Shown: piece after piece, positions 6,062-37,410 of the stretch | Layout: the number at the start of each line of letters is the position of its first letter | Position numbering within the stretch: position 1 is the stretch's first letter | Origin: Nitrospirota bacterium | GTDB lineage: Bacteria; Nitrospirota; Thermodesulfovibrionia; UBA6902 | Assembly: GCA_016215115.1 (NCBI GenBank) | Contig: JACRLN010000037.1 | Coordinates: 30,551 to 94,550, forward strand | DNA: 64,000 bases | Reading direction: 5' to 3' | Notes under the pieces: model-generated | What the model saw: only the letters and a program-made list of their open reading frames with translations | Told to the model about the DNA's origin: nothing | Database searches by the model: none | Program-made: the position numbers and the translations under genes

Positions 6062-6784
6062 ATGAATAAGATTGCATTAATTATTGGTGGAAGCCGGGGA
6101 ATAGGGCGTTCAATAGCCTTACGGTTAGCTCAGGCAAAATTTAATATCTGGTTAACATATAAAAGTAACCATGAGGCTGCAAAAAAAGTAAAATCAGAGA
6201 TAGAATCTCTTGGAACGGCGTGCGATTTAATCCCTTTTGACGTCTCGGATTTTAAAGAAACAGAAACCGCGCTGTCACCGAGGCTGGAGGATACGGCCCC
6301 TGATGTGCTGGTCTACAATTCAGGAATAACTCGTGACAACCTAATGGTATGGATGACAAAAGAAGAGTGGGACTCGGTCCTCTCCACAAACCTTGACGGG
6401 TTTTACAATGTGACCCGCACGGTATTGTTTTCGATGTTAAGGGCCAAAAGGGGGCGCATTATAATTATTTCGTCAGCCTCGGGCCAGATAGGTCAGGCGG
6501 GTCAGGTAAATTACTCTGCTTCCAAGGCAGGCCTGATCGGCGCTGCCAGGGCCTTAGCACGGGAAGTGGGGAGGAAAAATATTCTTGTCAACGTTGTTGC
6601 GCCGGGTTTTATAGAAACTGAAATGACCGAGAAGTTCCCGAAAAAGGATATCCTGCCATTAATTCCATTTAACCGTCTCGGCAGTCCCGATGATGTAGCG
6701 TCAGTAGTCAGCTTTCTGTGCACTGAAGAACATATGTACATTCACGGACAGGTTATCGGAGTTAACGGCGGACTTGTGATGTAG
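6062..6784 (+). CDS. fabG: 3-oxoacyl-ACP reductase (SDR; ApeQ/FabG-like ketoreductase)
   Basis: 240 aa; cofactor loop GGSRGIGRS; NSGITRD; catalytic S...YSASK; typical FabG C-terminus GQVIGVNGG. Confidence 0.9.
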   Translation: MNKIALIIGGSRGIGRSIALRLAQAKFNIWLTYKSNHEAAKKVKSEIESLGTACDLIPFDVSDFKETETALSPRLEDTAPDVLVYNSGITRDNLMVWMTKEEWDSVLSTNLDGFYNVTRTVLFSMLRAKRGRIIIISSASGQIGQAGQVNYSASKAGLIGAARALAREVGRKNILVNVVAPGFIETEMTEKFPKKDILPLIPFNRLGSPDDVASVVSFLCTEEHMYIHGQVIGVNGGLVM

Positions 6785-6800
6785 TTTCTTAATCATGTTT

Positions 6801-6998
6801 TTAACCACAGAGCACACAGAGGAAAATTAAGCAGCCGCAGAAATTAGTCGTCATGCCCGAAGTTCTTAATCGGGCATCCAGTTCTTTAACTGTCTGGATT
6901 CCCGCTTACTGACTGCCAACAGTAGGTGCTTTAGGCACGGGAATGACAACTAATGTGGCTTTATTTATGAAGTCCTTAGCAATCTGTGAAATCTGTGG
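6801..6998. repeat. MITE-like repeat, family B (CCACAGAG-type termini), copy B1, with a family A copy (A2, 6849-6970) nested inside
   Basis: Left end ttaaccacagagcacacagagg; right end atctgtgaaatctgtgg. The interior 6849-6947 is a complete double-hairpin family A element. Confidence 0.6.
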
Positions 6999-7012
6999 AT
7001 GAAAAGGTTCAA

Positions 7013-8518
7013 ATGAAAAAATACGATGACATTGTTGTTGGAAGCGGTATCAGCGGTTTGACAATGGCCCTCATTCTGGGAATGAACGGCCGGAAGGTAT
7101 TACTGCTCGAAAAAAGCCCCCGGATAGGCGGATCTGTATCAAGGTTTTATAAAAGGGGTATCCCTTTTGATACCGGCTTCCATTTTACAGGGGGGCTTGA
7201 TCGGAGCGGCATTCTGCATGACATATTATTAGTTCTCGGGATACGGGATTTAATCCAGCCGATATTCCTTTCTGAAGACAAGGCCCATTGCTTTTTCTTT
7301 GAATCGGAAAACAGGCTCTATGAAATCCCCTATGGAATTGAAAATATTAAAAAGAAATTTAAAGGTTATTTCCCGGGGGAAGGATCAAGCATTGACAGAT
7401 ATTTTGACAAAGTCCGGCAGGTCTGCGCTCACACGCCGTCAATGAACCTGCGTGCACTCGATTCTTCTCTTCAACTGCATCTGGAGGAAGACTTTTTGAG
7501 CCTGGAAGATGTATTAAACGGATTAACCGGCAATAACGTATTAAAAGCGCTGCTGTCCGGTTTTGCGATGTGCTACGGTGTAATGCCGAAGGAGATTTCT
7601 TTTGCCAATCACAGCAGGATGTGCCTTAATCTTTACGAATCGGTTGCACGCATTAAAGACGGCGGCGATGCTTTAATAAGGGCGTATGAGACAAAATTCA
7701 AGAACTTCGATATTGAAATACAATGCAATAAATATATTGCAAATCTTGAGGACATTCAGAACAAAAGGGTCGGCAGATTTATATTGAATACGGGTGAAGA
7801 AATTTCGGCTGTAAACTGCATATTCACGATACATCCCAGGGAAATTTTAAAAATCCTGCCTGAGCAGCACCTGAGCAAAGCCTTTATATCCCGGGTTTCA
7901 TCGTTTGAATCTTCAGCGGGATTTTTCTCTGTTTTTGCGGTGTTGGATAAAAAATATAATGACTCTGACTTCGATTCAACGATAGTCTCAATTTTTCCGC
8001 ACACTGACGTAAACCTGCTGTTAGACCCGGCAAACACAGGGGCGTCAGCTTTGGTAATTATGAAATCAATTGAGGAAGAGAGAGGAAAAACCTATAGGAC
8101 CATCAATACGTTTGAGCCGTCTTTTTTCGAGCATGTTGAAGCATGGAAGGATACAAAAACAGGCCATAGACCGCAATCTTACATGGATTACAAAAAAGAG
8201 AGGGTCGAAAAGATAATAGGACGCATTGTTAATACATTTCCGAAATATAAAGACCGGATAAAGGCCGTTGATTCTGCGTCTGTGCTTACATTCAGGGATT
8301 ATCTGAATAGTCCCGACGGCTCTGCATATGGAGTGAAACAGAAAATAAGTCAGTTTAACCTTCTCGGGAAGCTGCCCCTGCGCAACTTACATGCTGCGGG
8401 GCAGAGCTCCGTTTTACCGGGGATAATCGGCGCGATGATGTCTTCGTTCATTGTTGGACGGACAATTTTAGAAAAAGAAAAGTATAATAAATTTTTAAAC
8501 CAGAACCTATGCAATTAA
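7013..8518 (+). CDS. FAD/NAD(P)-dependent oxidoreductase, phytoene desaturase (CrtI)-like family
   Basis: Rossmann motif DIVVGSGISGLTMALILGMNGRKVLLLEK near the N-terminus; ~500 aa. The ATG at 7013 is preferred over the GTG at 6986, which lies inside the repeat terminus. Confidence 0.75.
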   Translation: MKKYDDIVVGSGISGLTMALILGMNGRKVLLLEKSPRIGGSVSRFYKRGIPFDTGFHFTGGLDRSGILHDILLVLGIRDLIQPIFLSEDKAHCFFFESENRLYEIPYGIENIKKKFKGYFPGEGSSIDRYFDKVRQVCAHTPSMNLRALDSSLQLHLEEDFLSLEDVLNGLTGNNVLKALLSGFAMCYGVMPKEISFANHSRMCLNLYESVARIKDGGDALIRAYETKFKNFDIEIQCNKYIANLEDIQNKRVGRFILNTGEEISAVNCIFTIHPREILKILPEQHLSKAFISRVSSFESSAGFFSVFAVLDKKYNDSDFDSTIVSIFPHTDVNLLLDPANTGASALVIMKSIEEERGKTYRTINTFEPSFFEHVEAWKDTKTGHRPQSYMDYKKERVEKIIGRIVNTFPKYKDRIKAVDSASVLTFRDYLNSPDGSAYGVKQKISQFNLLGKLPLRNLHAAGQSSVLPGIIGAMMSSFIVGRTILEKEKYNKFLNQNLCN

Positions 8519-9741
8519 AAAGAGTGGTAATTACAGGTATCGGGGTGGTCTCCCCGCTGGGAAACAGTGTTGCTTCTTTTATTGACGGGCTTGAGACAGG
8601 GAAAAGCTCGGTCCGTTTTATGGAAGAATGGACCCATTATAACGGCATGAGAAGTTTTGTGGCGGCTCCTGCTGAGCTGAAAGATGAAAAAAAAATTCCG
8701 CGCCAGAACAGACGGACGATGGGGCGTATGAGCATATTTGCTGCGCAGGCTTCTGAGCAGGCGGTTGCGGATTCAGGGATAACTCCTGCTGAGATATCTT
8801 CAGGAAGGACCGGCTGCATCATCGGGTCCACAATGGGAAGCGCAAAGAGCATTAATGACGCATTTGAAATAATGCTCCCCGAAAGAGATTTGACACGGCT
8901 CTCATCCTCTATGTTTTTTCAGTGCATGTCTCATACCGCTACCGTGAATGTTGCACAATATCTGGGATTGACCGGATATTTAATGACCTCGGCAGCGGCA
9001 TGCGCCTCATCTTTGCAGGCGGTCGGCATAGCTTATGATTTAATCAGGCTGGGAAGGCAGGATCTCTTCTTATGCGGAGGGACCGAGGAACTTCACCCGA
9101 CTGTTACAGGTTCTTTTGATATCCTTTTTGCGACCTCGGTTAAATACAATCAAGCGCCTCAAAAAACGCCCCGGCCTTTTGACAAAGACCGTGACGGACT
9201 GGTCTGTGGAGAGGGCAGCGGGATAATGGTGTTGGAAGAATATGAACACGCGGTACGCAGAAATGCAAAAATTTATGCTGAAATTGCCGGTTACAGCACA
9301 TTTGGAAGCGGCTCTCACATGAGTCAGTCAGACAAAAAATCCATGATTCATTGCATGAGCGAGGCCCTTCATTCTGCGGATATCAAGCCGGGACAGATAG
9401 ATTATATAAATGCACATGCCACGGGAACGCCGCAGGGAGACAAAGAGGAAGCCGAAGCGATAAAGGAAATATTCGGCGCTTCCGTGCCTGTCAGCAGCCT
9501 GAAAGGTTACATCGGACATACTCTCGGCGCTTCAGGCGCTATTGAATTGATTGCCTCATTAATTATGATGGAAAAGGGCATTATATACCCGACTCTGAAC
9601 CTGAAAGAAATCGATCCTGATTGCGGAGGGATCGCCCATATTACAGGGCCGGTCCGGAAGGAGATAAACACGGTCCTGAAAAACTGTTTCGCCTTTGGCG
9701 GGATCAATGCCTCGCTGGTTTGCAGAAAAAATATATACTAA
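8509..9741 (+). CDS. Beta-ketoacyl-ACP synthase (FabF/ApeR-like KS)
   Basis: 410 aa; active-site Cys in SAAACASSLQA; His motifs NAHATGT and GHTLGASG; start overlaps the upstream stop by 10 nt. Confidence 0.9.
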   Translation: MQLKRVVITGIGVVSPLGNSVASFIDGLETGKSSVRFMEEWTHYNGMRSFVAAPAELKDEKKIPRQNRRTMGRMSIFAAQASEQAVADSGITPAEISSGRTGCIIGSTMGSAKSINDAFEIMLPERDLTRLSSSMFFQCMSHTATVNVAQYLGLTGYLMTSAAACASSLQAVGIAYDLIRLGRQDLFLCGGTEELHPTVTGSFDILFATSVKYNQAPQKTPRPFDKDRDGLVCGEGSGIMVLEEYEHAVRRNAKIYAEIAGYSTFGSGSHMSQSDKKSMIHCMSEALHSADIKPGQIDYINAHATGTPQGDKEEAEAIKEIFGASVPVSSLKGYIGHTLGASGAIELIASLIMMEKGIIYPTLNLKEIDPDCGGIAHITGPVRKEINTVLKNCFAFGGINASLVCRKNIY

Positions 9742-9749
9742 GGGGGTCG

Positions 9750-9902: not shown

Positions 9903-9949
9903 CATTAGTATATGACATAACAGACCCTATGACGGAAGGAGACGACTGA

Positions 9950-10216
9950 ATGACCGAACAGGAAATTATCGAGATAACAAACAGGGTGTTTGAAGAATCG
10001 TTTGAGATTGAAAAAGAGAAATTGCATCCGCAGGCGCATATATTTCAGGATCTCGGGATTGACAGTCTTGATGTTGTTGATCTGGTAGTTGCGCTTCAGA
10101 AGAGTTTCGGGGTCAATATACGGAATGAGGAAAAGGTAAGGAACATCCGCACCCTGCAGGATATTTATGATTTTATTGCAGAAATAAAAAACGAAAAAGA
10201 AAGGCAAAGTTACTAA
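9950..10216 (+). CDS. Acyl carrier protein
   Basis: 88 aa; phosphopantetheine attachment motif LGIDSLDVVDLV. Confidence 0.9.
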   Translation: MTEQEIIEITNRVFEESFEIEKEKLHPQAHIFQDLGIDSLDVVDLVVALQKSFGVNIRNEEKVRNIRTLQDIYDFIAEIKNEKERQSY

Positions 10217-10219
10217 GGA

Positions 10220-10339
10220 GTTCATAAGTATGAAGACACGTTTGTCATGCCCGCAGGTAGTAAGCGGGCATCCAGTGCCTTTCTGGACTCCCGCTCAACA
10301 GACTGCGGGAATGACGCATATGTATTCTTACTTATGAAC
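10220..10339. repeat. MITE family A copy A4 (complete, with terminal inverted repeats GTTCATAAGTA / TACTTATGAAC)
   Basis: gttcataagtatgaagacacgtttgtcatgcccgcaggtagtaagcgggcatccag...ctggactcccgctcaacagactgcgggaatgacgcatatgtattcttacttatgaac. Confidence 0.85.
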
Positions 10340-11122
10340 TACTTAGCAAATCGAAAACATTCGCAAATCTCCATGAATTGTTTTATACTATTTTTTCTGA
10401 ATTTATATTTTTATTTCGTTTTTATAATATTTTCCATGATAGGAATTCCTGTTTTAATAATATTTGTCGCTTTTATATCGCTGTTTGCTCCAAAACGTTT
10501 TGTGATGAAACGTTTCCGCCGTTCTATAAGCTGGTACGGCAAAGGGGTGACTCTGGTTTTTTTCCCGTTTATACGGCTCCGTTATGAGGACCACTCAAAA
10601 AACGACTCGCAGGAACCATATATCTTTGTCAGCAACCACAGGGCCGCGTCGGATGCGTTTTTGATGTGCGTATTGCCGCATGAAGCTGTGCAGGTTGTAA
10701 ATGTCTGGCCGTTCCGTATCCCGGTTCTCGGTTTTTTTGCCCGGCTTGCCGGCTATTTAAATATCAGAATGATAAGCCACGAACTGTTTCTTGAGAAGGC
10801 CCTGAAATTACTGGAGGAGAAAGTCTCCATCATATTTTTTCCGGAAGGAACACGTTCAGGCGGCAAACAGGTAGGCAATTTTCACGGATCTGCATTCCGT
10901 CTTGCGCTGGCGTCAAAAGCTTCTATCGTTCCACTCTGCATCACGGGGAATGAGAATATGCCGCCGAAGGGTTCATGGCTTATGAGACCCGGCACCATCA
11001 TTGTGCGCAGGCTGCCTGCGATTGAATGGCAGGATTACAGAGACATGAATGTGTTTTCATTAAAGAACATGGTACGGGAGATTATAAGCAGGGAATTGTC
11101 ATTGATGGAGAAAGCGGCATGA
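10334..11122 (+). CDS. Lysophospholipid (1-acyl-glycerol-3-phosphate, PlsC-type) acyltransferase, membrane-anchored
   Basis: HX4D motif NHRAASD and FPEGTRS motif; N-terminal TM helices. The ORF-track start 10247 would translate the MITE, so ATG 10334 (or 10373) is preferred. Confidence 0.8.
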   Translation: MNYLANRKHSQISMNCFILFFLNLYFYFVFIIFSMIGIPVLIIFVAFISLFAPKRFVMKRFRRSISWYGKGVTLVFFPFIRLRYEDHSKNDSQEPYIFVSNHRAASDAFLMCVLPHEAVQVVNVWPFRIPVLGFFARLAGYLNIRMISHELFLEKALKLLEEKVSIIFFPEGTRSGGKQVGNFHGSAFRLALASKASIVPLCITGNENMPPKGSWLMRPGTIIVRRLPAIEWQDYRDMNVFSLKNMVREIISRELSLMEKAA

Positions 11123-12417
11123 TGGATTTTTATCAATACAGGAATATTGAATTCTCCAGACCGGATGAAATCAAAAATGTGCAGGAGAGGCTTTTGAAAA
11201 ACCATCTCGATTACATTTTTGATCATTCTCAGTACTACCGCAGGGTTTTAAACGGTATTGCTTTAAATAGAATAACCCTCGATGAAATTTCCAGACTGCC
11301 GTTTACGGATAAAGCGGTATTTGAAAATCATAATGACGAATTGCTTTCAGTCCCCGTTTCTAAAATAGTCGACATAGTCCTGTCTTCAGGGACTACAGGC
11401 AAACCCACCAGGATAATGTATACAGAAAATGATTTGCAGAGACTGGCATACAATGAAGAAATTTCTTTTGCCGGATGCGGTATTACCTCTGATGATGTTG
11501 TTTTGCTTACATGCACGATAGACAGGTGTTTTGTTGCCGGGCTTGCATATTTCCTGGGGATAAGAGCGCTTGGAGCCGCTGCTGTCAGAAACGGTCTCAA
11601 TAGCTTTGAAAGCCACATGGAAATGATACGGCGCATGAAACCTACCGTGATTGTCGGAGTGCCGTCGTTCATGCACAAACTGGGACTGTTCCTGCGGTCA
11701 AAGGGCCTTGAGCCCCGCGATAGCAATGTAACGAAACTTGTATGTATCGGTGAGCCCTTGAGGGACCGGGACCTTTCTTTGACGAAGATAGGCGGGTATC
11801 TTGAAGAAATATGGGGTGCAAAGGTATTCTCAACATATGCATCTTCCGAGACGATTACGTCATTCTGCGAATGCTCTGCGCAGAAGGGCGGGCACCTTCA
11901 TCCCGAACTGGCAATAGTTGAAATTGTTGATGACGATGGAGAAGTCCTGCCTTACGGAGAAACCGGAGAAGTGGTCGTAACAACATTTTTTGTAGAGGGA
12001 ATGCCCTTATTGAGATTCAGGACGGGTGATGTGAGTTTTTTAATAAACGAACCGTGCAGTTGCGGCAGGTTTTCGCCAAGACTCGGACCGATACTGGGAA
12101 GAAAAAAACAGATGATAAAATACCGGGGCACCACCCTGTATCCGCAGGCTGTTTATTCAGTGCTTGACGGGATACCGGAGGTTACTGAATACTATGTTAC
12201 CGTTTCCAGCGATTTCGAACTGTCCGATGCGTTGAAGGTATATGTTTCTGTAGAAAACAATGCCTGTTCTGCTGAAAGGATTATGGACAAACTCCAGGCG
12301 CACTTAAGGGTGAGACCGGAAGTTGTAATATCAGGCAAAGATGAGATTCAAAGTCAGCTTTTTTCCGGAAATTCACGGAAGGCAATTCGCTTTATAGACA
12401 GGAGAATAAACCAATGA
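11119..12417 (+). CDS. Adenylate-forming enzyme, phenylacetate-CoA ligase (PaaK)/F390 synthetase-like
   Basis: AMP-binding loop SSGTTGKPT; ~430 aa; ATGA start/stop overlap with the acyltransferase at 11119-11122. Confidence 0.8.
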   Translation: MMDFYQYRNIEFSRPDEIKNVQERLLKNHLDYIFDHSQYYRRVLNGIALNRITLDEISRLPFTDKAVFENHNDELLSVPVSKIVDIVLSSGTTGKPTRIMYTENDLQRLAYNEEISFAGCGITSDDVVLLTCTIDRCFVAGLAYFLGIRALGAAAVRNGLNSFESHMEMIRRMKPTVIVGVPSFMHKLGLFLRSKGLEPRDSNVTKLVCIGEPLRDRDLSLTKIGGYLEEIWGAKVFSTYASSETITSFCECSAQKGGHLHPELAIVEIVDDDGEVLPYGETGEVVVTTFFVEGMPLLRFRTGDVSFLINEPCSCGRFSPRLGPILGRKKQMIKYRGTTLYPQAVYSVLDGIPEVTEYYVTVSSDFELSDALKVYVSVENNACSAERIMDKLQAHLRVRPEVVISGKDEIQSQLFSGNSRKAIRFIDRRINQ

Positions 12418-13934: not shown

Positions 13935-13937
13935 TTG

Positions 13938-25849: not shown

Positions 25850-25899
25850 TGAAATCACCTGGTAAAGAACTCCGGGGTTTCCGCAGCTTTTTATGCCAT

Positions 25900-29125: not shown

Positions 29126-29368
29126 ATGACATTGCAAAACATTCAGGACAAATTGATACAGGGAATCGCTGCGATAACAGCGAAAGATGAATCTTCTATT
29201 GCGCCGGATGTGCCTTTTCATAAACTGGGAATTGACTCTCTCGGCTTTGTAGAAATCCTCGTCTTCATAGAAAAGACTTTTAATCTTCAGTTAATAGAAT
29301 CAGGGCTGGACAAGAAAGATTTTGAGACAATCCGCTCCTTAGCAGCTTTTATTCATAAAAAATTATAA
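29126..29368 (+). CDS. Acyl carrier protein
   Basis: 80 aa; LGIDSLGFVEILV. Confidence 0.9.
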   Translation: MTLQNIQDKLIQGIAAITAKDESSIAPDVPFHKLGIDSLGFVEILVFIEKTFNLQLIESGLDKKDFETIRSLAAFIHKKL

Positions 29369-29370
29369 CT

Positions 29371-32204: not shown

Positions 32205-32272
32205 CTATAGCATTCACACGAAAGTTGGAATCCAGTATAATAAACTGATTCTGGACACCTGCTTTTGCAGGA

Positions 32273-33745
32273 ATGAGTATAAAAAGTATATCTATCAATC
32301 TCGGGAGGCCGCCATTGCGCATATTACTTGTCAAGCCGCATCCGCAATTGCTTATAGCAAAACGCCTGCAGGAAGGTTTTCTGCATCTTGAACCTCTGGA
32401 ACTGGAAATAGTAGCAGGGGGAGTGCCTGCAGAAGACGAGGTATCGATTTGTGACCTGGGGGTTGAGAATAAACCTCTCCGGAAATTCCATGAGCAATTA
32501 AAAATGATAAACCCCCATATTGTCGGGTTTACCGGATACAGTTCACAGTCTGCCATGGTAAAGAAACTGGCAAAGATGTCAAAAGAGTATGATCCTTCGG
32601 TTATTAATGTGGCAGGCGGTGTTCATGCGACAATTATCCCGGCTGATTACGCAGTAGACGGGATTGATATTATTGTACGCGGCGAAGGCGGAACAACCTT
32701 CCGCGAGATTGTGAACCGTTACAAGCGAGGCCAGACGCTTTACTTCGGAGATGTATCATTGTCTCCCAAAGACCCTGATTTTCAGAAGAAGGCGGAAATG
32801 CCTCCGCCTGAATTCCCCCCGGTACATGACATACCCCGTCCGCGAAGGGACCTGGTCCAGCGCTCAAAATATTTCTGTGTCTGGACCTCGGCTCCTGAAA
32901 ACAGACTGGATACCATGTTCCCCCGGACAGCCAGCATGCGCACCTCCACAGGCTGTGCATTCAACTGTTCTTTCTGTGTAGTACATTACATCATGCGCGG
33001 TAAATATCTGCAGCGGACGCCTGAAGACGTCGTTGATGAAATAGCACAGATAAAAGAAGACAATATTTATTTCGTTGATGATGAGACCTTTCTGAATAAA
33101 AAGCGTATGACTGATATTGCTAATCTCCTGCTCGAAAAGGGAATAAAAAAGAAATATATCAGTTGGGCCCGGAGCGATACCATCGTGAAACACCCTGAAT
33201 TGTTCCGGCTCTGGAAAGAAACCGGGTTGGGACTGGTCTACGTCGGTCTTGAGGCAATGAGAGGGTCGCAATTAGACAATTATAATAAAAGGACAAACGT
33301 TGAGACTAACCGCAAAGCAGTGTCCATACTTCGTGAGATCGGCATAACGCTTCATGCAAGCTTTATCGTCGATCCCGACTTTACAGTTAAAGATTTTGTC
33401 TCGCTCGAAAAAGATGTTTTGGACCTCTGCCCTGCAGAAGTGACTTTCACGGTGTTCTCACCCGCGCCCGGAACGGAATTGTTCCAGAAACATAAAAAAG
33501 ATTATATTTGCGATCCGTTTTTATTTTACGACTGCATGCATACAATACTTCCGACGAGGCTTGGACTTAAAAAATTCTACGAGCATTTCGGACGGCTCTC
33601 CAGCGTTGCTCTCAGGGCCAATCCGCTGAGGGTCAACAAGGTCAGGGTCCCGAGAAAAGAGGTCCTTAAGGTTATTTACCGCGGTACCAGATATATTTTT
33701 GCTCTCCGGAACATGTATAAAGATTATACGCTGGATACGAAATGA
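32273..33745 (+). CDS. B12-binding-domain radical SAM enzyme (class B)
   Basis: 490 aa; LRILLVKPHPQ... N-terminal domain; cluster motif STGCAFNCSFCVV. Confidence 0.85.
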   Translation: MSIKSISINLGRPPLRILLVKPHPQLLIAKRLQEGFLHLEPLELEIVAGGVPAEDEVSICDLGVENKPLRKFHEQLKMINPHIVGFTGYSSQSAMVKKLAKMSKEYDPSVINVAGGVHATIIPADYAVDGIDIIVRGEGGTTFREIVNRYKRGQTLYFGDVSLSPKDPDFQKKAEMPPPEFPPVHDIPRPRRDLVQRSKYFCVWTSAPENRLDTMFPRTASMRTSTGCAFNCSFCVVHYIMRGKYLQRTPEDVVDEIAQIKEDNIYFVDDETFLNKKRMTDIANLLLEKGIKKKYISWARSDTIVKHPELFRLWKETGLGLVYVGLEAMRGSQLDNYNKRTNVETNRKAVSILREIGITLHASFIVDPDFTVKDFVSLEKDVLDLCPAEVTFTVFSPAPGTELFQKHKKDYICDPFLFYDCMHTILPTRLGLKKFYEHFGRLSSVALRANPLRVNKVRVPRKEVLKVIYRGTRYIFALRNMYKDYTLDTK

Positions 33746-35172
33746 ATATCTTCCAGATAATCAAACTTGAAACATCTCAATTCAGCAATAAGCCTGCTGT
33801 GATTGAAGATGATTACAGTGTGACTTATGGACAGTTGATTTCTTCTGCCGAATTAATCGCTTCCTCTCTGAAAGAAGAAGGTGTTATTTCGTTTCATCGG
33901 GTGGGACTGCTTTGCAGCGACGGCATTGACTATATTGTTGCAAGCCTGTCAATTTTGTATCTGTCGGCAATAGTTGTTCCAATCTCAATTGACAACACCG
34001 GAGATGAGATCGATGAGATCCTCGACAGGATGTTGATAGACTTTCTGATTTTTGAAAAAGGCTCATACAATTACGAAGGCGCTCATGACCTTAAATCAAA
34101 AGGATTAATAAGGAAAGAACTTTATATTAAAAAGAGAACGCTTAAAGAAAAGCCTTGCGATGAATATTATAAAATCAATCCTGCATTTATCCGCTTCAGT
34201 TCCGGGACCACCGGTACAAGCAAGGGCGTTGTTTTGTCGCATGAGTCCATCATTGAAAGGACCGATGCGGCCGATAAAGGGTTGAAAATAAAACCGGATG
34301 ATACGGTGCTATGGATACTTTCCATGAGCTTTCACTTTGTGGTGACCATTCTCCTGTTCCTTCGCCGTGCTTCAACCATTGTGCTCTGCGGCCATCATTT
34401 TCCTGGATCCCTGATTGAAGGCATCACTAAACATAACGGGACCTTTATCTATGCCTCGCCTTTTCATTACAATTTATTGGCCGGTTCGAATCTTATCCCT
34501 CACGGCTCTTTTGAAAAAATACGCATAGCTGTTTCGACTGCGATGAAATTGCCTGAAAACGTCGCTGATGAATTTTTTAGAAAGTTCGGTATTGCATTGA
34601 CTGAAGCATATGGAATCATAGAGGTTGGATTACCTTTTATTAATCTCTCAACTGATAAAAACAAACCTGACTCAGTGGGTAAGGCATTGCCGGATTATGA
34701 GGTCACGGTACTTAATAAAGATGAAGACGGGGTCGGGGAAATTAATATCAGAGGCAAAGGTATGCTGGACGCTTATTTTTCGCCCTGGCAGAACAGGGAG
34801 GACATTCTGCAGGAGGGTTGGTTCAAAACAGGCGATTTAGGCAGAATAGACAAAGACGATTTTCTGACGATAGTGGGGCGCGAAAAAGATGTTATTAATT
34901 TTGTCGGGATGAAGGTTTTTCCATATGAGGTCGAATCTGTAATAAATCAATTCACCGGCGTGAAAGAATCCTGTGTTTACGGCGAGAATCATCCAAAGTA
35001 TGGTCAACTGCCAATGGTAAAAGTTGTATTGAAAGATGGCGCCGGCACATCGCGGATTCTTGAAGACCTGAGAAAATATTGTTACCGGAAGCTCGCACAA
35101 TACAAAGTTCCAAAGGGATTTGAGATAGTTAATGAAATACCAAAAACAGTTAGCGGGAAGATTAAGCGATGA
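33742..35172 (+). CDS. AMP-dependent synthetase/ligase (fatty acyl-AMP/CoA ligase-like)
   Basis: 476 aa; FSSGTTGTSKGV, TGDLG and C-terminal GKIKR motifs; ATGA overlaps at both ends. Confidence 0.85.
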   Translation: MNIFQIIKLETSQFSNKPAVIEDDYSVTYGQLISSAELIASSLKEEGVISFHRVGLLCSDGIDYIVASLSILYLSAIVVPISIDNTGDEIDEILDRMLIDFLIFEKGSYNYEGAHDLKSKGLIRKELYIKKRTLKEKPCDEYYKINPAFIRFSSGTTGTSKGVVLSHESIIERTDAADKGLKIKPDDTVLWILSMSFHFVVTILLFLRRASTIVLCGHHFPGSLIEGITKHNGTFIYASPFHYNLLAGSNLIPHGSFEKIRIAVSTAMKLPENVADEFFRKFGIALTEAYGIIEVGLPFINLSTDKNKPDSVGKALPDYEVTVLNKDEDGVGEINIRGKGMLDAYFSPWQNREDILQEGWFKTGDLGRIDKDDFLTIVGREKDVINFVGMKVFPYEVESVINQFTGVKESCVYGENHPKYGQLPMVKVVLKDGAGTSRILEDLRKYCYRKLAQYKVPKGFEIVNEIPKTVSGKIKR

Positions 35173-36584
35173 AAATACTCCTCATTAATCCATTCGGTTC
35201 AAACTGGATAGAAGGCCGCAGGGACGATACAGAAACGGCTGTGCGGCTGGCCCCGATGGGGATACTTTTTGTGGCCTCCTATCTCATGAAAAAGGGTTTT
35301 GACGTAGATATTTATAACTGCCGCGGCAAGGCTGACAGGGGAACCTCAGATCTTATTAATAAGGTCATTTCCCTTAAGCCCGATATTGTCGGCTTTACAT
35401 CCACAACATCAAGCTTCCCGGGCGCCTATCATCTGGCAACGGAGATCAGGAAGGCGCTTCCGGATGTGAAGATCGTGTTCGGCGGAGTCCATATTTCAGC
35501 ATTGAGAGAGAAGATCCTTGAAAAATTTCCTCTCATAGATTTTCTCGTGACCGGTGAAGGAGAGATCGCCATGACTGAACTGGCCGGGGGGAAAGACCCA
35601 CGTATGATACAGGGGGTGCTCTCCCGCGATGCCCATGGCATTCAATCCTGCGGATTCCGGACCGAGCTGTGTGAACTCGATGATCTCCCGTTTCCCGCAT
35701 ACAGCAAGCTCGAAGGGTTCCCGAAATACTTTGAGCCTCCGCTTTTCAATTATCCCAGGGCCCCAAGCGCTTCAATAATCTCCAGCAGGGGCTGTCCTTA
35801 CCAGTGTTCCTATTGCGACCGGTCTGTTTTCAGGAAAAGCTTCAGGTATAACTCGGCTGAATATCTCTATGAACACATGGCCCTTCTCAAGAAGGACTTC
35901 AAGGTGAGACACATTTTTTTCTATGACGATCTCTTTACCTTTAACCGGAAAAGGGTAGAGGATTTTTGCGGACTGCTCCGGAAAAAGCCTTTGCACATGA
36001 CATTCAACTGCGCGGTAAGGGTAGGGCATGCAGACGACGCGCTCCTTCAGACGCTTAAGGCCGCCGGCGGATGGATGGTGAGTATAGGGATGGAATCCGG
36101 AGACCAGGGATTGCTTGAAAGACATAAATCAAATGTGACACTGAATGAGATCAGGGACACCGTCAGGCGGATAAAGAAAAACGGCATGAGGGTCAAAGGG
36201 CTCTTTATGATGGGGCTTCCGGGCGAGACCGAACAGACTATAAAAGGAACATCTGATTTTATCGAAGAACTCAGGCTTGATGATATGAATATGACCAAGT
36301 TCACGCCCTTTCCCGGCGCTCCTTCCTATAAGACGATCAATGAAGAGGGGACGTTCGATGAGAGATGGGAATTAATGAACTGCATGAATTTTGTCTTTGT
36401 GCCTAAGGGAATAGAATCCAAAGAGAAGATGGAGAAACTTCACAGACAGGCTATCAAGAGGTTCTACACCGGAAAGAACTGGATGTCGAAATTCTGGCCT
36501 TTGATGTTCAAATGTCCTGACAGCACCTTCAGGCTTATAAAGAACCTTCCCACGTTTTTGAGGATAAGGGACCAGTTCGAATAA
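35169..36584 (+). CDS. B12-binding-domain radical SAM enzyme (class B)
   Basis: 471 aa; MKILLINPFG...; cluster motif SSRGCPYQCSYCD. Confidence 0.85.
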   Translation: MKILLINPFGSNWIEGRRDDTETAVRLAPMGILFVASYLMKKGFDVDIYNCRGKADRGTSDLINKVISLKPDIVGFTSTTSSFPGAYHLATEIRKALPDVKIVFGGVHISALREKILEKFPLIDFLVTGEGEIAMTELAGGKDPRMIQGVLSRDAHGIQSCGFRTELCELDDLPFPAYSKLEGFPKYFEPPLFNYPRAPSASIISSRGCPYQCSYCDRSVFRKSFRYNSAEYLYEHMALLKKDFKVRHIFFYDDLFTFNRKRVEDFCGLLRKKPLHMTFNCAVRVGHADDALLQTLKAAGGWMVSIGMESGDQGLLERHKSNVTLNEIRDTVRRIKKNGMRVKGLFMMGLPGETEQTIKGTSDFIEELRLDDMNMTKFTPFPGAPSYKTINEEGTFDERWELMNCMNFVFVPKGIESKEKMEKLHRQAIKRFYTGKNWMSKFWPLMFKCPDSTFRLIKNLPTFLRIRDQFE

Positions 36585-36654
36585 GGGTTTTTATTTCACT
36601 TGAGTACATAAGAATGACCATAAACTAAAGCAGAAACTAAAAAGGAAGATATAG

Positions 36655-37410
36655 ATGAATCCATCCCATTCTAACAACCGTACCGACCCCGAGCTCCTCG
36701 AAGCAAACCGCCGGTTCTATGACCCGCTTTGGACCGACGCGCATTTGGTTGAGCCCGAGCGCTTTAACACCTGGCCGCTCGTATGCTCACTTGTCTCTCC
36801 GTCGCGGCCTCGGCTCGAAGTCGCACCCGGGTTGAGACCCCGGCTCCCTCTCAAGGAGACGTACTTCGTGGATATCAGTGCGCCGGCAATTGCCAAACTG
36901 CGCGCGCGTGGAGCGAACGCAGTTCTGGGCCTCGTGTCCTCGCTGCCGTTTGCCGACGGCGCGTTCGATTTCGTGTGCGCTCTCGACATTGTGGAACATG
37001 TTGACAATGAGGATGGCGCTTTGTCCGAGCTGTCGCGCGTGGCCGCTCCCGGCGCAGCGTTTTTACTCTCGGTACCGCTTCACCCCTCGCAGTGGTCGGC
37101 ATTCGATGACTTCGTAGGGCACCGGCGCCGTTACGAGCCAGAGCTTTTACTCGCCAAACTCAAGGAGCACGGCTTTACTGTGGAGCAGAGCGCTATTTAT
37201 GGGATGAAGCCGAAATCGTCGCGCCTGCTCGATCTCGGGATGTGGTTCCTCACACATCGGCGCAAGAAGGCGATGTGGTGGTACAGTTATGTTTTCATGC
37301 CGCTGGGATTACGCTTTCAGAAAAAGCTCGCCCTCTTCCCCCATATGATCGACACCGGGATGGTGAGCGAAGTCCTGCTTGTCTGCCGGAAAGATGGAAA
37401 GAGAGAATAA
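36655..37410 (+). CDS. Class I SAM-dependent methyltransferase (GC-rich, compositionally foreign)
   Basis: 251 aa; FDFVCALDIVEHVDNEDGALSELSRVAAPGAAFLLSVP is typical of Methyltransf_11/23-type proteins. Hand-counted GC is 57% (36661-36720) and 72% (36901-36960). Confidence 0.6.
   Translation: MNPSHSNNRTDPELLEANRRFYDPLWTDAHLVEPERFNTWPLVCSLVSPSRPRLEVAPGLRPRLPLKETYFVDISAPAIAKLRARGANAVLGLVSSLPFADGAFDFVCALDIVEHVDNEDGALSELSRVAAPGAAFLLSVPLHPSQWSAFDDFVGHRRRYEPELLLAKLKEHGFTVEQSAIYGMKPKSSRLLDLGMWFLTHRRKKAMWWYSYVFMPLGLRFQKKLALFPHMIDTGMVSEVLLVCRKDGKRE

What the first reader, a model, noticed from the sequence alone, without database searches (positions are those of the whole stretch)
6062..37410. 29-gene aryl-polyene-like type II PKS/FAS lipid cluster expanded by five radical SAM enzymes (ladderane-cluster-like; product unknown)
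Seen in the sequence:
- 29 same-strand ORFs, with 13 junctions where stop and start overlap or abut (for example ATGA at 11119, 12414, 21951, 33742 and 35169).
- Three KS with an active-site Cys (AAACASS, AACSSSS, NACSSG) and two Cys-less KS partners.
- Three ACPs (DSL motif), FabG (YSASK), a GHFPG hotdog dehydratase and a 4HBT thioesterase.
- A LolA-like protein, an MMPL exporter and a lipoprotein.
- GT2, LpxL-type and PlsC-type acyltransferases.

Established knowledge: this content, and the local order LolA-MMPL-lipoprotein-DH-TE-KS-CLF...GT-LPLAT-ACP, is the signature of aryl polyene (ape) clusters, which make outer-membrane-anchored polyene lipids (Cimermancic 2014; Grammbitter 2019; Ape letter names are from memory).

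Not canonical for ape clusters:
- Five radical SAM genes, four of them with a B12-binding-type N-domain.
- Two FAD oxidoreductases, one of them CrtI-like.
- A second KS/KS-like/ACP set.
- An HxxxD acyltransferase, a NodB deacetylase, a second adenylating enzyme and a methyltransferase.

I see no enoyl reductase and no aryl-starter genes (TAL, chorismate lyase).

FAS-like genes plus B12-rSAM enzymes plus a phytoene-desaturase-like enzyme is the combination proposed, but never proven, for ladderane synthesis in anammox bacteria (Rattray 2009; Javidpour 2016, from memory). B12-rSAMs are known to form C-C bonds or methylate lipid tails (GrsA/B, Tes/Mss, HpnP/HpnR).

Inference: the cluster makes an exported, head-group-decorated lipid whose unsaturated chain is radically cyclised, cross-linked or C-methylated.
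Basis: partly seen in the sequence, partly recalled or inferred. Interest (0 to 1): 0.9.

Follow-up and report, generated by a model that had tools for sequence, protein, structure and literature searches.

The report
Orphan radical-SAM aryl-polyene-type lipid cluster
This is a real 29-gene operon-like cluster in an anaerobic Nitrospirota bacterium that combines the machinery for aryl-polyene outer-membrane lipids with five radical SAM enzymes; it belongs to a widespread cluster family first described in 2009, for which I found no known product.

Summary
There are 29 same-strand genes at 6062-37410, and every stated motif is present.

A gene-by-gene comparison with the E. coli CFT073 ape cluster finds counterparts of ApeR, Q, F, D, P, M, I, K, O, J and E. 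ApeP is fused to the C-terminus of the radical SAM/SPASM enzyme. ApeJ is split into two genes.

The gene at 21951 is a full-score member of NCBIfam TIGR04072, 'lipid biosynthesis B12-binding/radical SAM protein'. Relatives occur in at least 416 species representatives, mainly Nitrospirota, Geobacterales and Desulfobacterales. The gene order from the first CoA ligase through the FAD oxidoreductase is nearly invariant in 38 loci. Three radical SAM genes are strictly co-conserved with the ketosynthases. The other two are conserved within Nitrospirota.

This family was described by Rattray et al. in 2009 (Kuenenia, Desulfotalea, Geobacter) and turns up as 'ladderane' clusters in MAG surveys. I found no paper that links it to a product.

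My best reading is an exported aryl-polyene-lipid-like glycerophospho-aminosugar lipid whose acyl chains are tailored by radical SAM enzymes, probably by C-methylation. Ladderane synthesis is unlikely. The cluster is a new member of a known orphan family, of moderate interest.

The parts
6062..6784 (+). FabG-type ketoreductase (ApeQ counterpart)
   Evidence: Pfam adh_short E 8e-50. FlxB 297 bits and FabG models. 40% identical to E. coli ApeQ. YSASK motif.
6986..8518 (+). CrtD/CrtI-family FAD oxidoreductase (no ape counterpart)
   Evidence: Amino_oxidase and NAD_binding_8. TIGR02733 CrtD 98 bits, far below cutoff. Conserved next to FabG and KS1 in 5 metagenome contigs.
8509..9741 (+). Ketosynthase KS1 (ApeR counterpart), Cys-His-His intact
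   Evidence: PRK09116 446 bits. 42% identical to ApeR. Alignment.
9950..10216 (+). ACP1 (ApeF counterpart)
   Evidence: PP-binding. PRK05350 71 bits, above cutoff 65. 35% identical to ApeF. DSL motif.
10247..11122 (+). PlsC-type lysophospholipid acyltransferase (ApeD counterpart)
   Evidence: PF01553. HX4D motif NHRAASD. 25% identical to ApeD, E 6e-6.
11119..12417 (+). PaaK/FlxY-like adenylating ligase (Lig1), candidate starter-acid activator
   Evidence: FlxY 468 bits (cutoff 520); PaaK-type models. Precedes the SPASM gene in 24 of 38 loci, often cut by the locus edge.
12414..13889 (+). Radical SAM/SPASM enzyme fused to an ApeP-like hotdog dehydratase domain
   Evidence: Radical_SAM plus SPASM. 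AhbD/NirJ-like. C-terminal residues 361-487 match E. coli ApeP, E 2e-6. PF22817 in the window protein (E 0.005) and in homologues. The fusion is conserved end to end in 37 of 43 loci.
13935..14603 (+). LolA-like periplasmic carrier (ApeL role)
   Evidence: PF03548. LolA2_flexi 118 bits (cutoff 125). Present in 38 of 38 loci.
14596..16965 (+). RND/MMPL-type exporter (ApeM counterpart)
   Evidence: Weak MMPL match. HAE3, HpnN and BstA models. 22% identical over 650 aa to ApeM. Present in 38 of 38 loci.
17169..17834 (+). DUF3261 lipoprotein (ApeN role)
   Evidence: DUF3261, E 8e-5. Signal peptide with a lipobox Cys. Present in 38 of 38 loci.
17831..18214 (+). ApeI-like hotdog dehydratase
   Evidence: PF22818. 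GHFPG motif. ApeI E 1e-4. Present in 37 of 38 loci.
18392..18883 (+). 4HBT thioesterase (ApeK counterpart)
   Evidence: 4HBT_2. 33% identical to ApeK. Present in 36 of 38 loci.
18847..19998 (+). Ketosynthase KS2 (ApeO/ApeR-like), Cys-His-His intact
   Evidence: Present in 38 of 38 loci. The ORF opens at 18805; ATG 18847 is the likely start.
20018..20689 (+). Short Cys-less KS-N-half protein, likely partner of KS2 (ApeC-like architecture)
   Evidence: Weak PF00109 match. The family profile matches the N-terminal half of FabF, E 3e-6. No detectable similarity to E. coli ApeC. Present in 38 of 38 loci.
20689..21954 (+). B12-binding radical SAM enzyme 'B12a'
   Evidence: PF02310 and PF04055. CKYNCFPC motif. 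Present in 38 of 38 loci at 69-90% identity, the most conserved protein of the cluster.
21951..23324 (+). TIGR04072 'lipid biosynthesis B12-binding/radical SAM protein'
   Evidence: 633.6 bits against cutoff 360. More than 1500 homologues. Relatives in 416 species representatives. Closest solved structure is TsrM, E 5.5e-31.
23308..24474 (+). GT2 glycosyltransferase plus DUF2062 (N-terminal half of ApeJ)
   Evidence: Best NCBIfam match is the polyprenyl-phospho-GalNAc synthase PpgS. 30% identical to the ApeJ N-terminal half.
24640..25548 (+). LpxL-type acyltransferase (C-terminal half of ApeJ)
   Evidence: PF03279. 24% identical to ApeJ residues 258-550. Motif HVGNWQ is conserved across the family.
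25565..25849 (+). ACP2 (ApeE counterpart)
   Evidence: PRK09184 74 bits, above cutoff 70. 37% identical to ApeE.
25849..26835 (+). NodB-family polysaccharide deacetylase
   Evidence: PF01522. Present in 28 of 38 loci.
26832..27989 (+). Ketosynthase KS3 (ApeO-like), Cys-His-His intact
   Evidence: PRK09185 305 bits. 37% identical to ApeO. Alignment. Present in 33 of 38 loci.
28013..29110 (+). Full-length chain-length-factor-like KS homologue (Cys to Phe, both His lost)
   Evidence: Present in 32 of 38 loci.
29126..29368 (+). ACP3
   Evidence: PP-binding. DSL motif. Present in 29 of 38 loci.
29371..30717 (+). Stand-alone condensation-domain-type acyltransferase (no Pfam family)
   Evidence: 541 homologues without a Pfam domain. 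AF2 model with pLDDT 82.7 and pTM 0.86. Foldseek matches NRPS C domains, the CDA starter C domain, PapA5 and TRI3, E 1e-18 to 4e-21. Invariant H143 and D147.
30722..32014 (+). FAD-dependent oxidoreductase (PF12831)
   Evidence: E 7e-73. Present in 22 of 38 loci within the flank examined. Present in L092-L094.
32273..33745 (+). B12-binding radical SAM enzyme, HpnR-like ('B12R')
   Evidence: TIGR04367 231 bits, E 1e-68, below cutoff 650. Follows the FAD gene in 9 of 38 loci and in L092-L094.
33742..35172 (+). FadD/MenE-like AMP-dependent ligase (Lig2)
   Evidence: AMP-binding E 2e-50. ATGA overlaps on both sides. Conserved.
35169..36584 (+). B12-binding radical SAM enzyme, HpnJ/BchE-like ('B12J')
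   Evidence: Homologues at 64-92% identity lie in the same position in three Nitrospirota contigs.
36655..37410 (+). Class I SAM methyltransferase (close relatives only)
   Evidence: Methyltransf_11. Present in L092 (89% relative) and absent at that position in L093 and L094.

Best explanation
The cluster is a Thermodesulfovibrionia (Nitrospirota) member of the widespread TIGR04072-type lipid gene cluster. That family is an aryl-polyene (ape)-related type II PKS system to which radical SAM enzymes are permanently attached.

Proposed working, by homology with the aryl polyene lipid (APEL) pathway:
1. A ligase (11119) activates a starter acid.
2. Three ketosynthase systems build chains without an enoyl reductase, so the chains are conjugated or unsaturated. 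The systems are KS1; KS2 with the short KS-like partner; and KS3 with the CLF. They work on three dedicated ACPs, together with FabG and the ApeI/ApeP-type dehydratase pair.
3. The PlsC-type enzyme puts one chain on a lysophospholipid. The GT2 enzyme adds an N-acetylhexosamine, and the LpxL-type enzyme esterifies a second chain to it.
4. The NodB-type deacetylase and the stand-alone condensation-type acyltransferase allow a third chain, from ACP3, to be N-acylated onto the freed amine.
5. The MMPL, LolA-like and DUF3261 proteins carry the lipid to the outer membrane.

The radical SAM enzymes tailor the carrier-bound chains. The SPASM enzyme is physically fused to the dehydratase subunit, so it should act during elongation. 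The B12 enzymes most probably C-methylate ring or chain carbons.

Shown here: gene content, homologies, the fusion, the condensation-domain fold, and co-conservation. Inferred: every chemical step and the product.
For: Family membership:
- TIGR04072 scores 633 bits against a cutoff of 360.
- More than 1500 homologues and relatives in 416 species representatives.
- The order Lig1-SPASM-LolA-MMPL-lipoprotein-DH-TE-KS2-KSshort-B12a-TIGR04072-GT-LpxL-ACP2-(deAc)-KS3-CLF-ACP3-U448-FADox is nearly invariant in 38 loci.

Relation to ape clusters:
- blastp to E. coli CFT073 ApeR, Q, F, D, P, M, I, K, O, J and E.
- Pfam ApeI-like and ApeP-like matches.
- Near-threshold flexirubin models FlxB, FlxY and LolA2.

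Functional template: APEL structure and gene roles from bioRxiv 10.1101/2020.12.19.423268.

Individual enzymes:
- No enoyl reductase domain was found among the 29 proteins.
- The 448-aa protein has a condensation-domain fold with an invariant HxxxD.
- The best GT2 match is a polyprenyl-P-GalNAc synthase.
- The rSAM-ApeP fusion is conserved in 37 of 43 loci.
- TIGR04072 is closest to TsrM and BzaD, and B12R is closest to HpnR; the two I know to be characterised, TsrM and HpnR, are C-methyltransferases.

Downstream module, including both extra B12 enzymes: conserved in three Nitrospirota contigs.
Against: - No product is known for any member of this family. All chemistry is inferred from distant homology (24-42% identity to the Ape proteins).
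- The short KS-like protein shows no detectable sequence similarity to E. coli ApeC.
- ApeA, ApeB, ApeG and ApeH have no blastp counterpart at E 1e-3.
- The deacetylase is absent from 6 loci that carry the KS3 module, and present in one contig that lacks that module. The proposed deacetylase/N-acylation coupling is therefore not obligatory.
- B12 radical SAM enzymes also catalyse non-methylating reactions (BchE, HpnJ, OxsB), and B12J scores best against HpnJ and BchE.
- The LpxL-type enzyme has HX4Q instead of the usual HX4D/E.
Confidence: 0.6

Rival explanations
1. The cluster makes ladderane (fused cyclobutane) lipids, or their direct precursors, as proposed for the homologous anammox clusters.
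For: - The TIGR04072 model is literally named 'rSAM_ladder_B12'.
- Kuenenia kuste3335-3352 has a very similar gene list.
- FAS-like genes together with B12 radical SAM enzymes and a phytoene-desaturase-like enzyme form the triad proposed for ladderanes.
Against: - Desulfotalea psychrophila carries the syntenic cluster but has no ladderanes.
- Ladderanes are reported only from anammox Planctomycetota.
- The current ladderane candidate is the anammox-specific Cluster I, kuste3603-3608 (amxACP, amxFabZ, PDH, FabF2/FabFmut, one B12 radical SAM). That is a different and much smaller set.
- KS3 matches 9s5h chain B, which I take, without confirmation, to be the amxFabF heterodimer, no better than ordinary FabF: 190 against 198 bits.
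- Expressing the Kuenenia genes in E. coli did not reveal the ladderane pathway (the paper's abstract describes its efforts to elucidate it as unsuccessful).
- The family occurs in hundreds of non-anammox anaerobes.
Confidence: 0.03
2. The cluster is an anaerobic route to ordinary polyunsaturated fatty acids or hydrocarbons, as Rattray et al. hypothesised. The FAD and radical SAM enzymes would act as desaturases, and the product would enter bulk membrane lipids.
For: - D. psychrophila makes C31:8 and C31:9 hydrocarbons, and Rattray et al. found no polyketide-type PUFA synthase in its genome.
- The cluster encodes a CrtD-like and a PF12831 FAD enzyme and no enoyl reductase.
Against: - The cluster has the full ape-type export and anchoring set: MMPL, LolA-like, DUF3261 lipoprotein, GT2, and LpxL-type and PlsC-type transferases. 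That points to a dedicated outer-membrane glycolipid rather than bulk fatty acids.
- Ape-type KS/DH systems make conjugated all-trans polyenes, not methylene-interrupted PUFAs.
- kuste3336 and kuste3607 showed no CrtI activity.
- From memory, not checked here: C31:9 hydrocarbons in other bacteria are made by Pfa plus OleABCD.
Confidence: 0.1
3. Two functionally separate clusters lie side by side. One is an ape-like core with three radical SAM genes (6062-25849). The other is an independent KS/CLF/ACP, C-domain, FAD and B12-radical-SAM module (26832-37410). Each would make its own product.
For: - The 85%-identical relative (L001/L005) ends after the deacetylase and ACP2 and continues with gidA.
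- L045, L057 and L066 also lack the KS3 module nearby.
- The accessory content between ACP2 and the deacetylase varies: an extra GT1 and a radical SAM/SPASM gene in L018, and a HemN-like radical SAM in L002-L004.
Against: - In 32-33 of 38 loci the KS3/CLF genes follow directly on the same strand.
- In the window the junction is a 4-nt overlap at 26832.
- The second module has no ketoreductase, dehydratase, thioesterase, exporter or anchor-forming enzymes of its own.
Confidence: 0.2

Closest known systems
Aryl polyene (ape) clusters of E. coli CFT073 and Xenorhabdus doucetiae, which make aryl polyene lipids (APELs)
   Same: - Counterparts of ApeR, ApeQ, ApeF, ApeD, ApeP, ApeM, ApeI, ApeK, ApeO, ApeJ and ApeE at 22-42% identity.
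- LolA-like and DUF3261 proteins, and two dedicated ACPs matching the PRK05350 and PRK09184 models.
- A KS paired with a short Cys-less partner, and no enoyl reductase.
- The local order LolA-MMPL-DUF3261 is the same.
   Different: - ApeP is fused to a radical SAM/SPASM enzyme, and ApeJ is split into two genes.
- No ApeA, ApeB, ApeG or ApeH homologue was found.
- Additional genes: four B12 radical SAM enzymes, two FAD oxidoreductases, a third KS/CLF/ACP set, a NodB-type deacetylase, a condensation-type acyltransferase, a second ligase and an unrelated methyltransferase.
- The host is a strict anaerobe.
- Neither the product nor an aryl head group is demonstrated.
Kuenenia stuttgartiensis kuste3335-3352 and the syntenic Desulfotalea, Geobacter and Pelobacter clusters (Rattray 2009; Javidpour 2016); the TIGR04072 family
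   Same: - The same inventory: GT, phytoene-desaturase-like enzyme, FabG, ACPs, several FabF paralogues including non-canonical ones, two adjacent radical SAM genes, a phenylacetyl-CoA-ligase-like gene, a polysaccharide deacetylase-like gene, a methyltransferase and an unknown lipid-transport membrane protein.
- The window protein passes the TIGR04072 equivalog cutoff.
   Different: - I could not align the window against the Kuenenia or Desulfotalea sequences directly, so this match rests on published gene lists and on the NCBIfam model.
- The window and other Nitrospirota carry two further B12 radical SAM genes.
- No product is known for any member.
Anammox 'Cluster I' (kuste3603-3608: amxACP, amxFabZ, FabF2/FabFmut, PDH, B12 radical SAM), the current ladderane candidate
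   Same: It has a KS/CLF-like heterodimer, a dedicated ACP, an FAD enzyme and a B12 radical SAM enzyme. This resembles the window's sub-module at 26832-33745.
   Different: - It is described as unique to ladderane producers.
- KS3 is no closer to 9s5h chain B, which I take to be the amxFabF heterodimer, than to ordinary FabF.
- The window module has a condensation-type acyltransferase and a PF12831 flavoprotein instead of amxFabZ and PDH.
Flexirubin (flx) clusters of Bacteroidota
   Same: Near-threshold NCBIfam matches to FlxB (297 bits, cutoff 340), FlxY (468, cutoff 520) and LolA2_flexi (118, cutoff 125).
   Different: - All three scores fall below the equivalog cutoffs.
- No TAL and no recognisable dialkylresorcinol (DarA/DarB-type) genes appeared in the Pfam or NCBIfam scans.
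- Flexirubin clusters, as I recall them, lack radical SAM genes.
Nod factor acylation logic (NodC/NodB/NodA with NodF/NodE), and PapA5 or NRPS starter-C-domain acyl transfer
   Same: This is a comparison of how it works, not of membership. The shared elements are a GT2 enzyme, a NodB-family de-N-acetylase, a dedicated KS and ACP making an unsaturated acyl chain, and an acyltransferase taking the chain from the carrier protein. The 448-aa protein folds like PapA5 and starter C domains.
   Different: The acyltransferase has a condensation-domain fold, not a NodA fold. Sugar N-acylation is inferred only, and the deacetylase is not always present.
Cobalamin-dependent radical SAM C-methyltransferases (TsrM, BzaD, HpnR, TokK)
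   Same: - TIGR04072 protein: TsrM E 5.5e-31 in the PDB search; BzaD 209 bits and TsrM 137 bits in NCBIfam.
- B12R: HpnR 231 bits.
   Different: All scores are far below the equivalog cutoffs. Substrates here would be ACP- or lipid-bound polyketide chains. B12J is nearer to HpnJ, BchE and AprD4, which are not methylases.

Membership tests
ape (aryl polyene) biosynthetic gene cluster, core as defined by Grammbitter et al. | Two ketosynthases, apeO and apeR | tested here: met
   KS1 is 42% identical to ApeR and KS3 is 37% identical to ApeO. KS2 is 31-32% identical to both. All three keep Cys-His-His.
ape (aryl polyene) biosynthetic gene cluster, core as defined by Grammbitter et al. | Two dedicated ACPs, apeE and apeF | tested here: met
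   ACP2 is 37% identical to ApeE and passes PRK09184 (74 bits, cutoff 70). ACP1 is 35% identical to ApeF and passes PRK05350 (71 bits, cutoff 65).
ape (aryl polyene) biosynthetic gene cluster, core as defined by Grammbitter et al. | Chain length factor apeC (a short, Cys-less KS-like partner) | tested here: inconclusive
   A 223-aa Cys-less protein made of the KS N-terminal half follows KS2. hhalign finds no significant similarity to E. coli ApeC, probability 1%.
ape (aryl polyene) biosynthetic gene cluster, core as defined by Grammbitter et al. | Dehydratase pair apeI and apeP | tested here: met
   The ApeI-like hotdog at 17831 (PF22818, below Pfam's gathering score: 21.6 bits against 28.5; blastp E 1e-4). 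The ApeP-like domain forms the C-terminus of the SPASM protein (blastp E 2e-6; PF22817 weak in the window protein at 16.8 bits against 27, strong in homologues).
ape (aryl polyene) biosynthetic gene cluster, core as defined by Grammbitter et al. | Ketoreductase apeQ and RND/MMPL transporter apeM | tested here: met
   FabG is 40% identical to ApeQ. The MMPL protein is 22% identical over 650 aa to ApeM, E 5e-15.
ape (aryl polyene) biosynthetic gene cluster, core as defined by Grammbitter et al. | Product with an aryl head group on a conjugated polyene (pigment) | not testable with these tools
   There is only an indirect hint. Lig1 resembles the flexirubin ligase FlxY and PaaK, but scores below cutoff.
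TIGR04072-type lipid cluster (Rattray 2009 synteny group) | A protein passing the TIGR04072 equivalog model | tested here: met
   633.6 bits against cutoff 360, full length.
TIGR04072-type lipid cluster (Rattray 2009 synteny group) | Conserved neighbourhood: second B12 radical SAM, KS paralogues, PaaK-like ligase, GT, membrane transporter | tested here: met
   The same order occurs in 38 loci of at least 20 kb from Nitrospirota, Geobacterales, Desulfobacterales and others.
TIGR04072-type lipid cluster (Rattray 2009 synteny group) | Direct orthology to Kuenenia kuste3342/3343 and the Desulfotalea genes | not tested
The comparison rests on the published gene lists.
Ladderane biosynthesis (anammox Cluster I) | An anammox-type KS/CLF pair (amxFabF2/amxFabFmut) closer to it than to housekeeping FabF | tested here: not met
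   KS3 scores 190 bits against 9s5h_B, which I take, without confirmation, to be the amxFabF heterodimer, and 198 bits against B. subtilis FabF. The CLF scores 22.8 bits against 9s5h_C, no better than against FabF.
Ladderane biosynthesis (anammox Cluster I) | Host is a ladderane-producing anammox planctomycete; ladderane lipid is present | tested here: not met
   The host is a Thermodesulfovibrionia MAG relative, 94% identical to CAVOUK010000009.1. Lipid content cannot be tested here. A syntenic carrier, D. psychrophila, lacks ladderanes.
Flexirubin cluster | Proteins passing the FlxB, FlxY and LolA2_flexi equivalog cutoffs | tested here: not met
   297 bits against cutoff 340, 468 against 520, and 118 against 125.
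NRPS condensation / PapA5 acyltransferase superfamily (for the 448-aa protein) | Two-lobed chloramphenicol-acetyltransferase-like fold with a catalytic HxxxD in the N-terminal lobe | tested here: met
   AF2 pTM 0.86. Foldseek probability 1.00, TM 0.57-0.73, to C domains, PapA5 and TRI3. H143 and D147 are invariant in 44 sequences.

The most novel reading that the evidence does not exclude
The TIGR04072-type cluster makes a so far undescribed class of outer-membrane glycolipid in strict anaerobes. It would be an aryl-polyene-lipid-like glycerophospho-aminosugar scaffold. Its conjugated polyketide chains would be modified by radical SAM chemistry while still on the carrier protein, through C-methylation, ring closure or chain-chain cross-linking. 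A third chain would be N-acylated onto a de-acetylated sugar.

The conserved fusion of a radical SAM/SPASM enzyme to the ApeP dehydratase subunit would then be the first example of radical chemistry built into a type II PKS elongation cycle. That mode has been proposed for ladderanes but never shown.
Probability: 0.4. Interest if true: 0.75.

Novelty: new member of a known kind. Interest (0 to 1): 0.4.

Why it matters
These clusters sit in hundreds of anaerobic species, including sulfate reducers, metal reducers and Nitrospirota. They cost about 30 kb of genome and are expressed in nature according to a Cariaco Basin survey. Genome-mining tools label them 'ladderane', although I found no report of what they make.

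A 2026 review of radical SAM lipid chemistry says it knows of only two ketoacyl-type lipids proposed to be radical-SAM-modified: ladderanes and the Jaw5 (jawsamycin) product. Solving one member of this family would have several consequences:
- It would reveal a new family of lipids tailored by radical SAM enzymes.
- It would correct a systematic mis-annotation.
- It could supply new biomarkers for anoxic environments.
- It would give a tractable model, in Geobacter or Desulfotalea, for the related anammox genes.

This particular window adds no new route to that goal. It is a typical Nitrospirota representative from an uncultured organism.

Tried and rejected
- Literature search for a characterised product of this cluster type. 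None was found. TIGR04072 is not mentioned in any held paper.
- Ladderane reading: rejected as unlikely (see rivals).
- Test of the short KS-like protein as an ApeC orthologue by hhalign: no similarity. A profile search against the PDB shows only that it is the N-terminal half of a FabF-like KS.
- Profile search of the 448-aa protein against PDB sequences: only the DHRxxD motif region of E2 acyltransferases matched, E 0.03. Structure prediction plus Foldseek was needed to place it.
- Metagenome scan with the CrtD-like protein: it returned only 5 short, closely related contigs. Co-conservation of the upstream module (FabG, CrtD, KS1, ACP1, PlsC) is therefore shown only for close relatives. For ACP1 and PlsC it is also shown in a few Desulfobacterales loci.
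- Search for a sigma-54 promoter in front of the cluster, prompted by the neighbouring NtrC-type activator: none found upstream of 6062. The only near-consensus site faces the other way.
- Sigma-70 promoter and terminator scans at both cluster ends: no more hits than in shuffled sequence.
- Rfam and tRNA scans of the whole window: nothing, and in particular no cobalamin riboswitch.
- PDB search with the methyltransferase: only generic class I methyltransferases.

Full report
OBSERVATION

The window carries 29 consecutive + strand ORFs from 6062 to 37410. With the most likely start codons they cover about 96% of the interval.

Pfam and NCBIfam scans of all 29 products confirm each assignment:
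- FabG, and a CrtD/CrtI-family flavoprotein.
- Three full ketosynthases and two Cys-less KS-like proteins.
- Three ACPs.
- PlsC-type and LpxL-type acyltransferases, and GT2+DUF2062.
- LolA, an RND/MMPL exporter and a DUF3261 lipoprotein.
- An ApeI-like hotdog dehydratase and a 4HBT thioesterase.
- A NodB-type deacetylase, two adenylating ligases, a PF12831 flavoprotein and a methyltransferase.
- Five radical SAM enzymes. Four have an N-terminal B12-binding domain and one has a SPASM domain.

The quoted motifs are all present.

One addition to the observation. The SPASM enzyme (12414-13889) carries a C-terminal ApeP-like hotdog domain:
- blastp E 2e-6 to E. coli ApeP over residues 361-487.
- PF22817 weakly in the window protein and clearly in homologues.

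The cluster therefore has both halves of the ape-type dehydratase pair.

ORGANISM AND BOUNDARIES

The closest species-representative genome is a Thermodesulfovibrionia (Nitrospirota) MAG. Its TIGR04072 protein is 94% identical at the amino-acid level to the window's (L018).

Upstream of the cluster lie:
- a histidine kinase and a sigma-54 activator (238-3246, + strand);
- a divergently transcribed unknown gene (3317-5140, - strand).

Downstream lies a convergent PagL-like outer-membrane protein gene (37587-38180, - strand).

In related contigs the synteny starts at FabG. It ends at B12J, or at the methyltransferase in the closest relatives. The stated boundaries are therefore reasonable.

WHAT IT IS

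Two independent lines place the cluster.

First, the gene at 21951 is a full-length, above-cutoff member of NCBIfam TIGR04072, 'lipid biosynthesis B12-binding/radical SAM protein', short name rSAM_ladder_B12 (633.6 bits, cutoff 360).
- The family has more than 1500 members at 90% clustering.
- Relatives were found in 416 of the species-representative genomes scanned. The best 80 come from Nitrospirota/Thermodesulfovibrionia, Geobacterales/Pelobacter, Desulfobacterales, Deferribacteres, Omnitrophota and Nitrospinota.

Second, I fetched the E. coli CFT073 ape cluster and compared proteins by blastp. The window encodes counterparts of:
- ApeR (KS1, 42% identity) and ApeQ (FabG, 40%);
- ApeF (ACP1, 35%) and ApeE (ACP2, 37%);
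- ApeD (PlsC-type, 25%);
- ApeP (fused, 24%) and ApeI;
- ApeM and ApeK (33%);
- ApeO (KS3 37%, KS2 31%);
- ApeJ, which is one GT2-acyltransferase fusion in E. coli and two adjacent genes here.

LolA-like and DUF3261 proteins are also present. This satisfies the core definition of an ape cluster used by Grammbitter et al. (KS apeO/R, ACP apeE/F, CLF apeC, DH apeI/P, KR apeQ, transporter apeM), with one exception. The short KS-like protein has ApeC-like architecture but no detectable sequence similarity to E. coli ApeC.

CO-CONSERVATION

I searched the 29 window proteins with tblastn against 38 loci that hold at least 20 kb around a TIGR04072 homologue. The gene order is almost invariant:

Lig1 - SPASM/ApeP - LolA - MMPL - lipoprotein - ApeI - TE - KS2 - short KS - B12a - TIGR04072 - GT2 - LpxL-type - ACP2 - (deacetylase) - KS3 - CLF - ACP3 - 448-aa protein - FAD oxidoreductase.

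This is followed by B12R and/or Lig2.

- The SPASM, B12a and TIGR04072 genes are present in 35, 38 and 38 of the 38 loci.
- B12a is the most conserved protein of all, at 69-90% identity.
- The SPASM-ApeP fusion is intact in 37 of 43 loci.
- The remaining two B12 enzymes and Lig2 lie beyond the 10-kb flank in most loci. Three Nitrospirota contigs examined from the other side show the same FAD - B12R - Lig2 - B12J order. The methyltransferase and the PagL-like gene appear only in the 89% relative.
- The upstream FabG - CrtD-like - KS1 - ACP1 - PlsC - Lig1 block is conserved in five related metagenome contigs at 64-92% identity.

Accessory content varies:
- the 85% relative lacks the whole KS3 module;
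- the 94% relative has an extra GT1 gene and a sixth radical SAM gene;
- others have a HemN-like radical SAM gene.

PRIOR KNOWLEDGE

Rattray et al. 2009 described this synteny between Kuenenia stuttgartiensis and Desulfotalea psychrophila, with similar clusters in Geobacter and Pelobacter.
- The shared genes were radical SAM enzymes, phytoene-dehydrogenase-like enzymes, a phenylacetyl-CoA-ligase-like gene, a glycosyltransferase and an unknown lipid-transport membrane protein.
- They found no ladderanes in D. psychrophila.

Javidpour et al. 2016 list kuste3335-3352 with essentially the same inventory as the window.
- Their E. coli expression work did not uncover the ladderane pathway; the abstract describes the effort as unsuccessful.
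- The phytoene-desaturase homologues showed no CrtI activity.

Current work on ladderanes focuses on a different, anammox-specific six-gene 'Cluster I'. A 2026 review states that the pathway remains unproven.

MAG surveys report antiSMASH 'ladderane' clusters, expressed, in Desulfobacterota, Omnitrophota and other non-anammox phyla, and call their function unknown.

I found no paper that assigns a product.

HOW IT MOST LIKELY WORKS

All steps in this section are inferred unless marked as shown.

The template is the APEL pathway:
- ApeD puts an ApeF-bound conjugated C26:5 acyl chain on a lysophospholipid.
- ApeJ adds GalNAc and then esterifies the ApeE-bound aryl polyene to it.
- ApeM, ApeL and ApeN export the lipid to the outer membrane.

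The window has the matching enzymes. Its GT2 scores best against a polyprenyl-phospho-GalNAc synthase. No enoyl reductase domain was found among the 29 proteins, so conjugated or unsaturated chains are expected.

Lig1 is a near-threshold match to the flexirubin ligase FlxY and to PaaK. An aromatic starter is therefore plausible. The absence of TAL or UbiC genes is uninformative, because the E. coli cluster lacks them too.

The third chain-building set is KS3, a full-length CLF with the Cys replaced by Phe and both His lost, and ACP3. It is followed by a 448-aa protein with no Pfam family.
- Shown: its AlphaFold model (pLDDT 82.7, pTM 0.86) matches NRPS condensation domains, the lipo-initiation C domain of CDA synthetase, PapA5 and TRI3 (E 1e-18 to 4e-21).
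- Shown: H143 and D147 are invariant.
- It is therefore a carrier-protein-dependent acyltransferase.
- Together with the NodB-type deacetylase, it suggests de-N-acetylation of the sugar followed by N-acylation. That is the logic of Nod factor synthesis. The deacetylase is not always present, so this link is tentative.

For the radical SAM enzymes:
- The TIGR04072 protein is closest to the tryptophan C2-methyltransferase TsrM (E 5.5e-31) and to BzaD.
- B12R is closest to the hopanoid C-3 methylase HpnR (E 1e-68).
- B12J is closest to HpnJ, BchE and AprD4.
- The SPASM enzyme is closest to AhbD and NirJ.

C-methylation of ring or chain carbons is the most economical reading for at least two of them. 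No ApeB-type methyltransferase is present. The fusion of the SPASM enzyme to ApeP argues that it acts on ACP-bound intermediates during elongation. Its chemistry (dehydrogenation, decarboxylation or C-C bond formation) cannot be told from sequence.

RIVALS

- Ladderane synthesis is very unlikely. The host is not an anammox bacterium, D. psychrophila has none, and the anammox-specific cluster is a different set of genes. KS3 is also no closer to 9s5h chain B, which I take without confirmation to be the amxFabF heterodimer, than to ordinary FabF.
- An anaerobic PUFA or hydrocarbon pathway (Rattray's hypothesis) does not explain the dedicated glycolipid-anchoring and export genes.
- A 'two adjacent clusters' reading has some support from relatives that lack the KS3 module. 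However, the second module has no reductive, release or export functions of its own, and it is translationally coupled to the first in the window.

VERDICT

The cluster is a typical Nitrospirota member of an orphan family that has been recognised since 2009 and has its own NCBIfam model. Novelty: new member of a known kind. Interest is moderate. The product is still unknown and may be a new class of lipid tailored by radical SAM enzymes. This window does not make that question more testable than the cultured carriers already do.

Noticed in passing
window 5277-5292 (- strand), with 238-3246 and 3317-5140: A near-consensus sigma-54 promoter (TGGCATGATCCTTGCA, 1 mismatch) lies about 140 nt upstream of the minus-strand 607-aa ORF, which has no Pfam family. 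That ORF sits next to a histidine kinase and an NtrC-type sigma-54 activator. The promoter faces away from the lipid cluster. The number of pattern matches across the whole window is what chance predicts.
   Followed up: partly
window 37587-38180 (- strand); L092 12308-12964: A PagL-like (lipid A 3-O-deacylase family) outer-membrane beta-barrel gene lies convergent to the end of the cluster. It holds the same position in the 89% relative L092 but not in L093 or L094. It may be an accessory outer-membrane lipid-remodelling enzyme.
   Followed up: partly
L018 13766-16758; L002 13942-15333; L094 3677-4122: The slot between ACP2 and the deacetylase is a hotspot for insertions. The 94% relative carries an extra GT1-type glycosyltransferase and a sixth radical SAM/SPASM gene there. 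L002-L004 carry a HemN-like radical SAM gene. Elsewhere, L094 has a HicAB toxin-antitoxin pair inserted between the CLF and ACP3 genes.
   Followed up: partly
window 24640-25548 (residues about 125-130) and 72 homologous loci: The LpxL-type acyltransferase has HVGNWQ, that is HX4Q, where E. coli ApeJ has HLGDVE (an acidic residue), as, from memory, do LpxL-family enzymes generally (HX4D/E). The Gln is conserved in at least 66 of 72 homologues.
   Followed up: partly
window 20689-21954: The first B12 radical SAM protein (B12a) gives only weak Pfam matches (B12-binding E 8e-11, Radical_SAM E 4e-8). Even so, it is the most conserved protein of the cluster across phyla, at 69-90% identity in 68 loci. 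It always lies directly upstream of the TIGR04072 gene and overlaps it, which suggests the two work as an obligate pair.
   Followed up: no
window 39844-44172 and 45872-49393: Downstream genes look unrelated to the cluster. They include a 1442-aa BcrAD/BadFG-type CoA-enzyme activase fused to DUF2229, an SMC protein, and PAS/GGDEF/EAL signalling proteins. The whole window has no Rfam matches and no tRNA genes.
   Followed up: no
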